Assembly (NCBI GenBank): GCA_965217775.1
Contig: CBDCJH010000002.1
Span: forward strand, 1,088,001 to 1,152,000
Source: Acidobacteriota bacterium
GTDB taxonomy: Bacteria; Acidobacteriota; UBA6911; RPQK01; JAJDTT01
Length of the DNA: 64,000 nt
Direction: 5' to 3'
This document shows positions 4,023 through 9,981 of the stretch, one piece after another. A program made the position numbers and the translations under genes. Numbering within the stretch: position 1 is the first letter of the stretch; every line of letters starts with the position of its first letter. The notes under the pieces were generated by a model that searched no databases, had not been told where the DNA came from, and worked only from the letters and a program-made list of their open reading frames with translations.

Positions 4023-5204
4023 ATGAATCCCGAGACCAGCCCGTTCAGACCGGGGCAACCCGTTCCCATTGAGTTCTTCGTCGGTCGTGTCGACGAAATC
4101 AGTCGTCTGCACGGTATGGTGAAAGCCAGCACACAAGGCAGGTTCAAAATAGGATTCATCAGTGGCGAACGCGGCATTGGGAAGAGTTCCCTGGCGTCTT
4201 TCGTGCGCCACCTTCCCGAGCAAGGGAGCGCAGTCGCAGGGTGCCATGTGTCTCTTGGCGGCGTCCGGGGATTGCAGGAGATGCTAAGGAGGACCTTCAA
4301 TCGCCTCTTGAAGGAGAGCAGGGACAAGCCCTGGCACGGACAAATCCGGGAGTTTTTCGGAAACCATGTTCGCAAAGTGGGAATGTTCGGCATCAGCCTG
4401 GAATTGGATCTCAAGGACAGAGACCTGTCGACGGTTGCCCATGACTTCGTTCCAACCATCAGGCGGCTCATGGACAGTCTCAAGGGCCACAAGAGCGCCC
4501 TTTTTCTGATACTGGACGACATCAATGGACTCGCTGGTTCCGAAGCCTTCGCCAATTGGCTCAAGAGCATGGTGGACGAGATTGCCACTTCGGGACGTAC
4601 GGTGCCCCTCTGTATTCTCGTCGTCGGCCTCGAGGAAAGACGACAGGAACTGATAGAGCATCAGCGATCTCTCGCCCGCGTTTTCGAGTTGATCGACCTC
4701 GCGCCCTGGTCGACGGGTGAAGTCAAGCAGTTTTACGACACATCTTTCGACTCCGTGAACGCAAAGATCACTGACTCCGATATGGAACGACTTGTCCGGT
4801 TCACCGGCGGACTTCCTGTACTGGCTCATGAAATCGGTGACGCGGTATGGCGCACGGCGCGAAACTTGGACATCAGTGCAAGAGAAGTTACGGCCGGTAT
4901 TCGGACCGCCGCCGACGTGATCGGCCGAAAACTGCTGGAACCACGGATATTCGCCGCCATCCATAGTGAGCGTTACCGTTCGATTCTTCGAAAATTGTCG
5001 GCCGAGCCTCGGATGCGCTTTCGTAGATCGGAACTCGTGGATCGTCTGACGGACGACGAAAAAAGAGTCATGGACAATTTCCTGAGGCGTATGAAACAAC
5101 TCGGAGCGTTGGATGCCGATCCCGGAATCAGAGGCGGGTACCGATTTCCGAACCTCCTCCACGCGTTGTATTTCTGGATGGAGGCACAGCGAACCAGCGC
5201 ATGA
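4023..5204 (+). CDS. AAA/STAND-like P-loop ATPase (AAA_16/archaeal ATPase type) with C-terminal winged-helix-like region
   Basis: SPFRPG...FVGR motif, Walker A GERGIGKSS, Walker B LFLILDD, TGGLP motif. Confidence 0.85.
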   Translation: MNPETSPFRPGQPVPIEFFVGRVDEISRLHGMVKASTQGRFKIGFISGERGIGKSSLASFVRHLPEQGSAVAGCHVSLGGVRGLQEMLRRTFNRLLKESRDKPWHGQIREFFGNHVRKVGMFGISLELDLKDRDLSTVAHDFVPTIRRLMDSLKGHKSALFLILDDINGLAGSEAFANWLKSMVDEIATSGRTVPLCILVVGLEERRQELIEHQRSLARVFELIDLAPWSTGEVKQFYDTSFDSVNAKITDSDMERLVRFTGGLPVLAHEIGDAVWRTARNLDISAREVTAGIRTAADVIGRKLLEPRIFAAIHSERYRSILRKLSAEPRMRFRRSELVDRLTDDEKRVMDNFLRRMKQLGALDADPGIRGGYRFPNLLHALYFWMEAQRTSA

Positions 5205-5280
5205 ATCCGAGAGCAACGTTAACGGGACCACGTTCCGACGGCTGCAACTGCCAATCTGAGGGATTGATTGGTGACGAAAT

Positions 5281-5424
5281 ATGAAGGATCCAATCCTCAA
5301 GGAAATTCGAAAGACAAGGGACGCCCCCGCCACCAAGTTTCATTCTGACCTGCACACGATCTGCGAGGACCTTCGCAAGAAAGAGAAGATCTGCGGTCAT
5401 CCGGTCGTCTCCCTTCCGCGGTAA
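5281..5424 (+). CDS. 47-aa small protein resembling antitoxin-like partners of PIN toxins (possibly a remnant)
   Basis: Translated by hand: MKDPILKEIRKTRDAPATKFHSDLHTICEDLRKKEKICGHPVVSLPR. Resembles the DPIVEEIR..R....A.F..DL..I..DL...VVSL small-protein pattern. Confidence 0.5.
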   Translation: MKDPILKEIRKTRDAPATKFHSDLHTICEDLRKKEKICGHPVVSLPR

Positions 5425-5724
5425 ACGCATCCTCAAGAAGTCGTCCGTGTGAAATGGCGGAATCAGCCACTTCATGTCTAGCCCGCATTTCTCACCAGGT
5501 CGCTACGCGTATGATGAAAAAGAATTTGTTTTTGAGCATTTACGCGGATTATGCCAAGGTTTCTCCGGGACAGACTGCGCGCTGGGCGCTCGCTCGCTGG
5601 TCTTTTCGCCCTCAGCGCGCACATGCTCCCTCAAACGTAGTCACCACTACGCTCTCGGTCGCGAGCACGCGCTGAGGGCGAAAATCCTGCGCGATCGTCA
5701 CGCCCCCTTCTGAGAAACAACCCT

Positions 5725-7068
5725 TTATGTCGCCTGCGAAACTAGCTTGTAGCCGAGGAGACGGGCCTGGTTTCGCACCCGGCGTTCGAAACGTTGCCGG
5801 TCCTGGTGCTCGGTCTCGGTGATCTTGTCCTCCTTATAGTCCACGCGATCGGTGATGAGGCGATAGATGATCCGGGCGAGTTTATGCGCGGTGGCGACGA
5901 TCGCCGCCGGCGTGCCCACTCGGGCGCGCAGCCGGCGGAAGTATTGCCCGAGAGGCGATTGGCTGCGAAACAGGGACTGGGTGGCCCAGCGCAGAGCCTG
6001 GGCGGCCCGGTTCGCGCCCGGTCCGGTGCTGGAACTGATCACCTTGCCGCCGCTGATCTTGTTCTTGGGACACAGGCCCAGCCAGGAGGCGAAGTGCGCC
6101 GAATTGGGAAAGCGGGACAGATCCGGTCCCACTTCCGTGAACAGGACCAGGGCGGTCTGCTCCCCGATGCCGGGGATGCACATCAGGTCCGTGCCCATCA
6201 GTTGCTTCAGTTGCACCCGCAACGGCACCGCCGCAGCCGAGGCGTCCGCACCCTCTGAGGCCCTCGCTTCAAGCGGTAGCGTCGAGCGTTCGAACCCCCG
6301 GATCAGGACGGCGATTTCCTGATCACATTCCCCCAAGAGCTGCTGGAAGTGGGCATAGGTCTCCCGAGCTTGGCGTAGCGTGAACAGCAGTTCGTCGCGC
6401 CAGTTCCCTTCCAACGCTGCGATCAACAGTTCCCGTTTTCGGGTCCGAATCCGCGGGTGGGCCAAGTCGGCCAACCGGGCCGGATCCCGCTCGCCAGCCA
6501 GGATGGCGTCGATGATCCGCAGCCCCGAGAGTCCCGTGATGTCGGTGATCGCATGGTGCAGATGGACATTCATCTGGTCCATCGCCTTTTGCATGTGCAG
6601 CGTCGCCTTCGCGGCGGCCTTGACCAAGGTGTCGCGGTGCCGTAGCAGGGTGCGCACCCGACAGATCTCGTCGGCCGGTCGGAACGAGCCCCGCAACAAG
6701 CCCACCGAGTGCAGGTACCGCAGCCACTCGCAGTCGGCCACGTCGGACTTGCGTCCGGGGACCACACTCACATGACGGGCGTTGACCAGCACCACATCGA
6801 ACCCGTAGTGCTCCAGGATCTGGTACACCGGGATCCAGTAGACTCCCGTCGACTCCATGGCCACGCTTTTTACGTGGCACCCCTGCAGCCACCGCGCCAG
6901 GGCGTGCAGTTGGGAAGTAAAGCTGCGAAACGATCGGATCGGCTGCGGATCGCGGTCGGGGCGGATCGCGACGTACAGTTCCCGAGCGCCGATGTCGATG
7001 CCGGCGGCCTCCGGATGCACGACGTTGGGTTGGGCGCTCCGAGTGCCGGTGCGTTTGCGTCTTGCCAT
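5725..7068 (-). CDS. IS110-family transposase/recombinase (447 aa)
   Basis: DEDD motifs AAGIDIG, VAMESTGVYW, RKSDVADC; C-terminal IPGIG, FASWLGLCP, ISGG. GGAGG RBS before ATG 7068. Confidence 0.95.
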   Translation of the reverse strand: MARRKRTGTRSAQPNVVHPEAAGIDIGARELYVAIRPDRDPQPIRSFRSFTSQLHALARWLQGCHVKSVAMESTGVYWIPVYQILEHYGFDVVLVNARHVSVVPGRKSDVADCEWLRYLHSVGLLRGSFRPADEICRVRTLLRHRDTLVKAAAKATLHMQKAMDQMNVHLHHAITDITGLSGLRIIDAILAGERDPARLADLAHPRIRTRKRELLIAALEGNWRDELLFTLRQARETYAHFQQLLGECDQEIAVLIRGFERSTLPLEARASEGADASAAAVPLRVQLKQLMGTDLMCIPGIGEQTALVLFTEVGPDLSRFPNSAHFASWLGLCPKNKISGGKVISSSTGPGANRAAQALRWATQSLFRSQSPLGQYFRRLRARVGTPAAIVATAHKLARIIYRLITDRVDYKEDKITETEHQDRQRFERRVRNQARLLGYKLVSQAT

Positions 7069-7104
7069 GATGATTGCCTCCACGTTGATTTGGAAAATGT
7101 GCCA

Positions 7105-7295
7105 ATATGGAGCGGGGCGGCCAGGGCGTGAGTTCCGGTAATCTTCTGTTTGGGATGATCCTCTCTGGCTTGCTGCCAGGGAGGATCTCACCATGGATTC
7201 CGCCACCCGCCCCGGGACCAAGCTGATGACCGGGTTCGCCTCGAAAGGCTCAACGCCAGTGGGGGACCGGACTACTTCACGCCCCACTCCGAAAC
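7105..7295 (-). ncRNA. candidate IS110 bridge/seek RNA
   Basis: Lies within ~300 bp of non-coding sequence upstream of the transposase. TAGAAT -10-like box at 7303-7308 on the minus strand, 11-bp closing stem (7109-7119/7280-7290), 13-bp hairpin at 7157-7187, and 8-9 nt matches to target and element ends. Confidence 0.6.
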
Positions 7296-7527
7296 TGGCC
7301 CCATTCTAGCGAAAGCGAACCCCCCTGTTTCTCTTAGGATTTCGCCGGCCCCAGGCCGGTGGGGGAGCTGGTGAGAAATGCGGGCTAGGATAAGAACGCA
7401 GAATGGGAGCCTGCGGCGTTATAAGGAATTAAGTCTGGAGACGGTGTGGGTCATCGATGGAGAGTCCGTGTCCCGGGTGGGGAACGCTACCCGGATCGCT
7501 CAATAATTCGTACATGGGTAAATCTTC

Positions 7528-9981
<2,454 letters not shown>

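What the first reader, a model, noticed from the sequence alone, without database searches (positions are those of the whole stretch)
7069..7367. Candidate bridge RNA with matches to both target flanks and the donor end
The non-coding region contains TCACGCCCC (7277-7285, identical to target flank 5698-5706) and its complement GGGCGTGA (7124-7131). It also has TCTCACCA (7186-7193, reverse complement of target flank 7369-7376), GTGGGGGA (7259-7266, identical to element end 7359-7366) and CTTCTG (7143-7148, core plus other end). A -10-like TAGAAT and long stems are present. The order and orientation do not map cleanly onto the IS621 LTG/RTG/LDG/RDG layout, so the architecture may differ. Caveat: some matches may simply be stem partners in GC-rich DNA.
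Basis: partly seen in the sequence, partly recalled or inferred. Interest (0 to 1): 0.72.

Follow-up and report, generated by a model that had tools for sequence, protein, structure and literature searches.

The report
Bridge RNA of an IS110-family element

Summary
Window 5709-7369 is a 1661-bp IS110-family insertion sequence. Its transposase is on the minus strand (7071-5725). It sits in the right terminal repeat of a ~250-bp MITE, at a CT/AG core. The genome holds 3 copies and many empty sites. The 298-nt left end (7072-7369) encodes, on the transposase strand, a structured RNA conserved in relatives. A covariance model finds 94 matches in 100 sources, and 36 of 39 pairs show compensatory changes.

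Family covariation gives these guides:
- GUCAUCAG (7223-7230) reads the left target flank plus core.
- The next 2 nt, CU, read the first donor bases, like a handshake guide.
- CCCCC (7261-7265) reads the right target flank.
- AACAGAAG (7143-7150) reads the right-end donor flank plus core.
- No guide was found for the donor's left-end side beyond those 2 nt.

Only CTTCTG is a correctly assigned guide. GTGGGGGA overlaps the right-target guide. TCACGCCCC, GGGCGTGA and TCTCACCA are conserved helix strands.

Read in the RNA's own direction, the guide order is the reverse of IS621 and matches the IS1111 type. No expression data were available. I rate it an ordinary member of a known kind with a variant layout.

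The parts
5478..5708 (.). Left part of the ~250-bp MITE-like repeat that holds the target. It has 21-23-bp terminal inverted repeats, CTAGCCCGCATTTCTCACCAG...; the other part is 7370-7388.
   Evidence: 47 matches in the genome, about 14 of them full-length uninterrupted copies; contigs in runs X1 and X4 join 5477 to 7385, an allele lacking both repeat and IS.
5707..5708 (.). Core dinucleotide CT (AG on the transposase strand), left copy. The right copy is at 7368-7369.
   Evidence: Comparison of both junctions with 14 empty sites.
5709..7369 (-). IS110-family insertion sequence, 1661 bp counting one core copy.
   Evidence: Three copies in the genome (1661, 1661 and 1660 bp) differ at 20 alignment columns. 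All sit at the same position of the repeat.
5709..5724 (-). Right end (16 nt). On the transposase strand it reads ...GTTGTTTCTCAGA before the AG core. It holds the family-conserved GTTYCT motif and one arm (5712-5719) of an 8-bp subterminal inverted repeat.
5725..7071 (-). Transposase/recombinase gene, 448 aa.
   Evidence: Pfam PF01548 + PF02371. NCBIfam NF033542 'IS110 family RNA-guided transposase', 263 bits. Distant match to IS621 and ISCro4 structures, with D26, E73 and S340 aligned to their catalytic residues. D110 and D113 are invariant in the 9-sequence family alignment.
7072..7369 (-). Left end (298 nt), non-coding. It holds the bridge RNA gene.
7105..7293 (-). Bridge RNA core: the closing helix P1 encloses a target-binding and a donor-binding stem-loop.
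   Evidence: Covariance model R1: 107.5 bits, E 1e-24, the only hit in the 64-kb window. Covariation.
7303..7308 (-). -10-like TAGAAT, about 13 nt upstream of P1. Relatives have TATACT, TAGACT or TATAGT at the same place. No -35 box was recognised.
   Evidence: The strict sigma-70 scan found no promoter.
7280..7290 (-). P1 5' strand GGAGUGGGGCG, pairing with 7109-7119 (CGCCCCGCUCC).
   Evidence: helix 1: all 11 pairs show changes on both sides.
7261..7265 (-). Right-target guide: RNA CCCCC, on the 5' strand of the target-binding loop. It pairs with the second core base G plus GGGG of the right target flank on the transposase-sense strand.
   Evidence: Family-wide complementarity at this column only. 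All 3 occupied sites have GCCCC-CT.
7223..7230 (-). Left-target guide: RNA GUCAUCAG, on the 3' strand of the target-binding loop. It has the same sense as left flank plus core (CTCACCAG). One U where the site has C allows a U:G wobble. It matches the CTGATGAG variant of the repeat perfectly.
7221..7222 (-). Handshake-like dinucleotide CU, directly 3' of the left-target guide. It equals the first two bases of the element's left end (CT).
   Evidence: equal in 35 of 43 elements against 18% in cross pairs.
7143..7150 (-). Donor guide for the right end: RNA AACAGAAG, on the 3' strand of the donor-binding loop. It has the same sense as right end plus core (CTCAGAAG) with 6 of 8 matching.
7187..7194 (-). 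Conserved strand AUGGUGAG, pairing with AUCCCA (7151-7156) at the base of the donor-loop hairpin (7157-7187).
   Evidence: helix 6: 95% of cells paired; UGG and GA are nearly invariant.
7122..7130 (-). P2 3' strand CACGCCCUG, pairing with 7204-7214 (CGGGGCGGGUG).
   Evidence: helices 4 and 5.
7326..7333 (-). Left-end arm (RNA sense GAGAAACA) of the 8-bp subterminal inverted repeat. It lies upstream of the -10-like box. AGAAAC is conserved in relatives.

Best explanation
The stretch 7072-7369 is the left end of an IS110-family insertion sequence (5709-7369). It encodes a bridge RNA of about 185-200 nt on the transposase (minus) strand.

Structure. A closing helix P1 encloses two stem-loops, each with a large internal loop.

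Target loop. Its 5' strand (CCCCC, 7261-7265) pairs with the second core base plus 4 nt of the right target flank. Its 3' strand (GUCAUCAG, 7223-7230) pairs with the other strand of the left target flank plus the AG/CT core. The next two bases (CU) match the first two bases of the element's left end, like the handshake guide of IS621.

Donor loop. Its 3' strand (AACAGAAG, 7143-7150) pairs with the right end of the element plus core.

Function. The RNA, bound by the DEDD/Ser recombinase, would align the circularised element's RE-LE junction with the terminal repeat of a MITE and direct insertion at the CT core.

Shown here: element borders, the shared core, conserved and covarying RNA structure, and covariation of three guide segments plus the 2-nt extension with the flanks across relatives.

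Inferred: that the RNA is made, is bound by the protein, and works by the IS621 mechanism.

Polarity. With the core written as CT, the loop layout is collinear with IS621 (5' guide reads the left flank's bottom strand; 3' guide reads core plus right flank, followed by the handshake). In that frame the RNA and transposase genes lie on the bottom strand.
For: Protein: Pfam PF01548 + PF02371; NCBIfam IS110 RNA-guided transposase, 263 bits; catalytic residues aligned to IS621.

Borders: 3 copies and 14 empty sites give TCACGCCCC-CT-GGTGAGAAAT.

Structure: model R1 finds 94 matches in 100 sources, and the 80 L061-L140 loci are oriented so the transposase match is on +. The only window hit is 7105-7293(-). 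88.4% of cells are paired against 65.8% in shuffles (0 of 500 reach it) and 37-44% when partners are slid. 36 of 39 pairs have changes on both sides. RNAalifold on the plain MAFFT alignment recovers the local helices independently. P1 duplex energy is -21.3 kcal/mol with the own partner against -10.0 with others' partners, and the own partner is best in 24 of 40. The invariant U:G pairs would be A:C on the other strand, which fixes the transcribed strand.

Guides: the 7-mer before YUGGUCCC matches perfectly at the left border in 42 of 57 elements, against 0.8% for other elements' guides. The 7-mer after AUCCCG matches perfectly at the right end in 49 of 57, against 1.8%. An unbiased 5-mer scan of all RNA columns found right-flank complementarity at one place only (24% against 2.9%). 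The 2-nt extension equals the first donor bases in 35 of 43, against 18%.

In this genome: the three guides are identical in all 3 copies. 3 of 18 sites of the CCCC-CT type are occupied, against 0 of 28 other TIR sites among the fetched loci.
Against: No RNA evidence: no RNA run was listed, and no promoter was found by the strict consensus scan. The -10-like box has no recognisable -35.

In this element both flank guides have a mismatch: the left-target 7-mer has 1 (a possible wobble), and the donor guide matches only 6 of 8.

No guide was found for the donor's left-end side beyond 2 nt, and the 5' strand of the donor loop shows no signal. The donor half of the 'bridge' is therefore weaker than in IS621.

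Left and right borders of single-copy relatives were located with the guides themselves. The LT and LD matches are thus partly by construction; the cross-guide control, the right-flank signal and the 2-nt signal are not.

Alignment A3 is fitted to the model, so the counts lean towards the structure.

The site preference (3 of 18 against 0 of 28) is only suggestive. My own hypergeometric arithmetic gives about 0.05; no call computed it.

The excess of 8-9-nt matches is not fully explained by my reading.
Confidence: 0.85

Rival explanations
1. The 8-9-nt matches (RNA GGGGCGUGA, UCACGCCC, UGGUGAGA, UCCCCCAC) are the programmable target and donor guides of a bridge RNA with a new layout.
For: As a set the matches are far above chance (0 of 2000 shuffles reach 5).
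Against: In the RNA's sense, GGGGCGUGA, UGGUGAGA and UCCCCCAC would pair with the DNA strands opposite to those read by IS621-type guides.

The letters are conserved in relatives that have other targets: GGRGCGCGAAGUAG, UUCACGCCUYGGCC, YUGGUGAG. They are helix strands with covariation around them.

An unbiased scan found no family-wide link between these columns and any flank.

Copy L003 carries 7279 A>G, which breaks the 9-mer. Copy L002 sits at TCATGCCCC. Copy L003 sits at GATGAGA, which breaks the UGGUGAGA match.
Confidence: 0.05
2. The conserved stems double as auxiliary pairing surfaces in this particular element. UCACGCCC could extend pairing along the right target flank (bases 2-9). UGGUGAGA could pair with the left flank's top strand. 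This would add affinity for the MITE end beyond the canonical guides.
For: Once complementary and functional matches are set aside, two or three independent 8-9-nt coincidences remain. I judge that unlikely by chance, from the shuffle distribution, in which only 5% of shuffles had 2 or more matches.
Against: The same as for the first rival: the identities are broken in 2 of 3 copy/site pairs, and there is no family signal. The segments are buried in helices.
Confidence: 0.07
3. The left end is only a structured 5' leader or promoter region that controls transposase expression. It has no role in DNA recognition.
For: The structure lies between a -10-like box and the ribosome-binding site. No terminator follows it, so it is probably part of the mRNA leader.
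Against: Three loop segments and a 2-nt extension track the flanking DNA of each element across relatives. A leader has no reason to do this. The protein family is the RNA-guided recombinase family.
Confidence: 0.03

Closest known systems
IS621 bridge RNA (IS110 group; Durrant et al. 2024, PMC11208160; Hiraizumi et al. 2024, PMC11208158; passages read)
   Same: A DEDD/Ser recombinase with the RNA encoded in a long left end upstream of the gene, and a very short right end. There are two internal loops, one for target and one for donor. Guides read opposite strands on the two sides of a 2-nt core shared by target and donor. A 2-nt handshake-like extension follows the 3' guide of the target loop. 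The natural target is a repeated extragenic element.
   Different: The protein is only distantly related (phmmer E 5e-11, partial; 448 aa against 328).

In the RNA's own direction the core reads AG, not CT. The left-flank (bottom-strand) guides sit on the 3' side of the loops, and the right-flank guide on the 5' side.

The guides are shorter: about 5-6+2, 4-5+1 and 5-6+2.

No guide was detected for the left-end donor side, and there is no donor-loop handshake.

A long closing helix P1 replaces the separate 5' stem-loop. The -10-like box lies about 62-67 nt inside the left end, rather than the promoter being rebuilt across the RE-LE junction.
IS1111-type seekRNA / bridge RNA (ISEc11, ISKpn4, ISPa11; Siddiquee et al. 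2024, PMC11187229; passages read)
   Same: The segment complementary to the top strand precedes the segment complementary to the bottom strand, as here. Subterminal inverted repeats are present (here 8 bp, GAGAAACA / TGTTTCTC).
   Different: [quoted passage not shown] Here it is upstream, in a long left end. I did not test phylogenetic placement relative to IS1111-type proteins.
Large-scale bridge RNA catalogues (Durrant 2024: bridge RNAs predicted in 85.7% of IS110s; preprint 10.64898/2026.10.21.760802: 86 covariance models and 32,190 bridge RNAs; section 2.4 read)
   Same: The same approach (covariance model plus covariation with reconstructed target and donor). Those authors state that many models deviate visibly from the IS621 structure yet covary with target and donor.
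   Different: I could not see their figures or supplements. I therefore cannot tell whether this particular architecture is among their models.

Membership tests
IS110-family RNA-guided insertion sequence | Recombinase with DEDD RuvC-like domain plus Tnp domain | tested here: met
   PF01548 (E 2e-18) and PF02371 (E 6e-16). NF033542: 263 bits against a cut-off of 140.
IS110-family RNA-guided insertion sequence | Catalytic D, E, D, D and Ser present | tested here: met
   D26, E73, D110 and D113 are invariant in the 9-sequence family alignment. D26 and E73 align to the GID and E(A/S)TG motifs of IS621, and S340 aligns to the Ser of its ESG motif. Residue numbers for IS621 come from the paper. The match of S340 to S241 assumes a 2-residue offset in the chain.
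IS110-family RNA-guided insertion sequence | No long terminal inverted repeats; a short core shared by target and element ends; site-specific insertion | tested here: met
   CT core at both junctions and in empty sites. All 3 copies sit at the same position of the same repeat family.
IS110 group (as opposed to IS1111 group) | Long left end, short right end, RNA upstream of the gene | tested here: met
   Left end 298 nt, right end 16 nt. RNA model hit at 7105-7293, upstream of the start codon at 7071.
IS110 group (as opposed to IS1111 group) | Only 2-3-bp subterminal inverted repeats; bottom-strand guide precedes top-strand guide | tested here: not met
   An 8-bp inverted repeat, 5712-5719 / 7326-7333. 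The top-strand (right-flank) guide lies 5' of the bottom-strand (left-flank) guide.
Bridge RNA | Conserved structured RNA with two internal loops next to the recombinase gene | tested here: met
Bridge RNA | Loop segments that covary with target flanks | tested here: met
   Left flank: 42 of 57 perfect 7-mers against 0.8%. Right flank: 24% against 2.9%, with an antidiagonal of Z 1.6-3.4.
Bridge RNA | Loop segments that covary with both donor flanks | tested here: inconclusive
   The right-end side is met (49 of 57 against 1.8%). The left-end side is read only by 2 nt attached to the target guide (35 of 43). There is no signal in the 5' strand of the donor loop.
Bridge RNA | RNA is transcribed and binds the recombinase; guides are reprogrammable | not testable with these tools
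   No RNA run was listed. This needs bench work.
Rfam families | Match to a curated covariance model | tested here: not met
   Nothing relevant at E up to 10 in 5000-8000; the best hits are chance miRNA and snoRNA matches. I did not check whether Rfam 15 holds a bridge RNA family.

The most novel reading that the evidence does not exclude
This clade (relatives at 38-66% protein identity in Acidobacteriota, cyanobacteria, proteobacteria and enterobacterial plasmids) may be a third architectural class of bridge RNA. It would combine an RNA upstream of the gene, as in the IS110 group, with IS1111-type guide polarity and subterminal repeats. It would have a closing helix around both loops, and three guides plus one 2-nt handshake. 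There would be no RNA guide for the left-end donor side, which would instead be read by the protein through a conserved end hairpin. The protein may also read the conserved GTTYCT motif, which the targets partly mimic. In this element the conserved stems might add extra pairing to the MITE end.
Probability: 0.15. Interest if true: 0.55.

Novelty: new member of a known kind. Interest (0 to 1): 0.35.

Why it matters
It shows that raw 8-9-mer matching between an IS110 end and its flanks can mislead even when the matches are statistically real. Family covariation places the guides elsewhere. For people who mine bridge recombinases, this clade offers two things. First, its layout has the crossover frame inverted relative to the genes. 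Second, its donor loop seems to read only one side of the donor. If confirmed, that bears on how much RNA pairing the recombinase needs. For the genome itself it is an ordinary, probably recently active, insertion sequence that targets one end of a MITE.

Tried and rejected
Rfam scan of 5000-8000 at E up to 10: only chance hits.

Strict sigma-70 scan: no promoter. The one terminator-like site (7415-7397, minus strand) lies outside the element.

No RNA holder was listed for 6900-7500, so expression could not be examined. The four runs laid were contigs of unknown kind and say nothing about RNA.

Search for a guide to the left-end donor flank. I tried contiguous matches of 5 nt or more from the 5' strand of the donor loop, position-by-position Z-scores, matches of 6 nt or more anywhere in the RNA, and a 5-mer scan over all alignment columns. 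None gave a consistent signal. Isolated long matches in single relatives (10 nt in L103 and L119) were not at a common position.

The idea that the RNA is made from the plus strand (where three reader matches would have IS621-like sense) was rejected. The model hits follow the transposase strand, and the invariant U:G pairs would not pair on the other strand.

The idea that the MITE derives from the IS left end was rejected. There is no extended similarity beyond the short matches.

MAFFT alone put P1 and P2 out of register. I therefore used duplex energies and a covariance model.

I did not attempt phylogenetic placement against IS1111-type and IS621-type references, because no reference sequences were on hand. 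Paper supplements and figures could not be seen. They may show whether this architecture is already catalogued.

Full report
**What is there.** The finding lies upstream of a minus-strand ORF (7071-5725, 448 aa). That ORF carries the two Pfam domains of IS110-family recombinases and scores 263 bits on NCBIfam NF033542, 'IS110 family RNA-guided transposase'. A search of solved structures finds only IS621 and ISCro4, distantly (E 5e-11 and 3e-9). The GID, E(S)TG and SG motifs align to their catalytic residues. D26, E73, D110 and D113 are invariant among nine relatives.

**Borders.** The window's genome holds three copies of the element and 47 matches to the region. Most of those matches belong to a ~250-bp repeat with 21-23-bp terminal inverted repeats.
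- Fourteen uninterrupted copies read, with variants, ...GATCGTCACGCCCC-CT-GGTGAGAAATGCGGGCTAG.
- The interrupted copy in the window reads ...TCACGCCCCCT|TCTGAGAAAC... on the left and ...GGTGGGGGAGCT|GGTGAGAAAT on the right.
- The element is therefore 5709-7369 (1661 bp with one CT). It has a 16-nt right end and a 298-nt left end, and it sits in the right terminal repeat of the MITE.
- All three copies are at the same position and in the same orientation. They differ at 20 alignment columns.
- In two metagenome runs a contig joins 5477 to 7385. That allele lacks both MITE and IS.

**The observation.** Against the four junction flanks, the left end has five distinct exact matches of 8 nt or more. 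Dinucleotide shuffles give a mean of 0.38, and 0 of 2000 reach five.

**Relatives and structure.** I fetched relatives from related genomes (12 of 61 genomes had a match) and from genome contigs (571 relatives confirmed, 80 kept, 42-66% identity).
- Their upstream regions share blocks: a -10-like hexamer, GYNAAGRCCG, CAYUGGUG, RCCCG, YUGGUCCCG, CAYUGGUGAS and AUCCCG.
- RNAalifold on a plain MAFFT alignment of 40 sequences recovers three local helices, with compensatory changes in 10 of 19 pairs.
- The long-range helices P1 and P2 were out of register in MAFFT. For these I used duplex energies. P1 gives -21.3 kcal/mol with the own partner against -10.0 with others' partners, and the own partner is best in 24 of 40. 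P2 gives -15.7 against -10.7.
- A covariance model with 39 pairs found 94 matches in 100 sources. In the window it found one hit only, 7105-7293 on the minus strand.
- On the resulting alignment, 88.4% of cells are paired against 65.8% in shuffles (0 of 500 reach it) and 37-44% with slid partners. 36 of 39 pairs show changes on both sides. That alignment is fitted to the model, which favours the structure.
- Two U:G pairs are invariant or nearly so (UG in 89 of 89 and 86 of 90 cells). They fix the strand.

**Guides.**
- The 8 nt before YUGGUCCC and the 8 nt after AUCCCG both end in AG.
- The 7-mer of the first occurs perfectly in the 150-nt window where the left border should lie in 42 of 57 non-identical elements. 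Guides of other elements do so in 0.8% of cases.
- The 7-mer of the second occurs perfectly at or after the stop codon in 49 of 57, against 1.8% (listing).
- Borders of multi-copy relatives, read from copy comparison, agree with this (four copies in G055, six in G028).
- Both guides have the sense of the transposase strand, so they pair with the other strand of the left target flank plus core and of the right end plus core.
- A scan of every RNA column for 5-mers related to any flank found one further signal: complementarity to core plus right target flank at the variable 5-6 nt before CAYUGG (24% against 2.9%). Position by position it forms an antidiagonal, with the conserved C opposite the core G and the five bases before it opposite flank bases 1-5 (Z 2.2, 3.0, 1.6, 2.2, 3.4).
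- The two bases after the first guide's AG equal the first two bases of the left end in 35 of 43 elements, against 18% in cross pairs. The borders had been placed without using these two bases.
- No signal was found for the rest of the left-end donor flank.

**This element.**
- The left-target guide is GUCAUCAG (7223-7230) against CTCACCAG. The U opposite the site's C allows a wobble. The guide fits the CTGATGAG variant of the repeat perfectly. That variant is present at the third copy's site and in three empty copies.
- The handshake-like CU is at 7221-7222.
- The right-target guide is CCCCC (7261-7265) against G+GGGG.
- The donor guide is AACAGAAG (7143-7150) against CTCAGAAG.
- None of the 20 differences between the three copies falls in these segments.
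- Among the 46 terminal-repeat sites in the loci I had fetched, 3 of 18 with CCCC before the core are occupied, against 0 of 28 others. This is suggestive only.

- CTTCTG is part of the donor guide and was correctly assigned.
- GTGGGGGA (RNA UCCCCCAC) overlaps the right-target guide. Its identity to the element's own end is mostly a C-run meeting conserved flanking letters. The same relation was seen at this location in 3 of the 41 non-identical elements scanned (ours, L098, L110). By the 5-nt measure the figures are 10% against 3%.
- TCACGCCCC lies over the inner half of P1 and the junction, where close relatives with other targets read GGRGCGCGAAGUAG.
- GGGCGTGA is the P2 3' strand, where relatives read UUCACGCCUYGGCC.
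- TCTCACCA is the invariant UGGUGAG, which pairs with AUCCCR.
- Within the genome these identities are not kept. Copy L003 has 7279 A>G, copy L002 sits at TCATGCCCC, and copy L003 sits at GATGAGA.
- I cannot fully explain why so many 8-9-mers coincide. An auxiliary role is kept as a low-probability rival.

**Comparison with known systems.**
[quoted passage not shown] A 2-nt handshake guide follows the 3' guide.
- Here, in the RNA's own direction, the core is AG and the sides are swapped.
- Siddiquee et al. report that IS1111-type seekRNAs have the top-strand match before the bottom-strand match, and that their IS110-type example has the reverse. This clade has the IS1111-type order but the IS110-type location.
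- If the core is written as CT, the layout becomes collinear with IS621, including the position of the handshake. The genes then lie on the bottom strand.
- A 2026 preprint reports 86 bridge RNA models and 32,190 loci, many with structures that deviate from IS621. I could not see its figures or supplements. I therefore file this as a new member of a known kind, and I state the variant features without claiming priority.

**Not shown.** I have no evidence for transcription, RNA ends, protein binding or activity. No RNA run was available. The -10-like TAGAAT (7303-7308) is conserved in position among close relatives but lacks a recognisable -35.

**Tools.** Paper supplements were closed.

Noticed in passing
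window 5478-5708 + 7370-7388; loci L004-L030: A ~250-bp MITE-like repeat with 21-23-bp terminal inverted repeats ending in CTAG. The genome has 47 matches to the region, with shorter deletion variants of about 125 and 105 bp. Contigs in runs X1 and X4 join 5477 to 7385 with a 4-nt overlap, so related strains lack it at this locus.
   Followed up: partly
window 5598-5686: An imperfect long palindrome inside the MITE (TTTTCGCCCTCAGCGCG...CGCGCTGAGGGCGAAAA). It gave a chance Rfam hit to mir-2068 (24 bits against a cut-off of 99).
   Followed up: no
right ends and left target flanks of relatives: The right end has a nearly invariant GTTYCT at -12 to -7 from the crossover. Left target flanks partly mimic it: 12 of 45 have the motif, against 2-3 of 45 in control flanks. 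In this element the target and the right end share TTTCTCA. This suggests a protein-read motif besides the RNA guides.
   Followed up: partly
L055, L074, L117, L037, L039, L056, L057: Some relatives are inserted next to, or into the end of, another copy (a second RNA model hit in L074 and L117), or into short sequences that look like an RE-LE junction of a related element.
   Followed up: no
window 4023-5204 and 7528-9981: The MITE and IS lie between a STAND/AAA_16-type ATPase gene and a full-length RecQ helicase gene (DEAD, Helicase_C, RecQ_Zn_bind, RQC, HRDC, HTH_40).
   Followed up: partly
plasmid hits H3-H5: Relatives at about 44% protein identity occur on Enterobacter, Citrobacter and Moellerella plasmids. 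They are annotated only as IS110 family transposase or hypothetical protein.
   Followed up: no
window 7345-7359: The left end begins with a short GC hairpin (CCGGCC-UGG-GGCCGG) directly after the first 10 nt. The same feature is seen in most relatives (C-N6-ACCGGCC...). It is a possible recognition element for the donor side that has no RNA guide.
   Followed up: no
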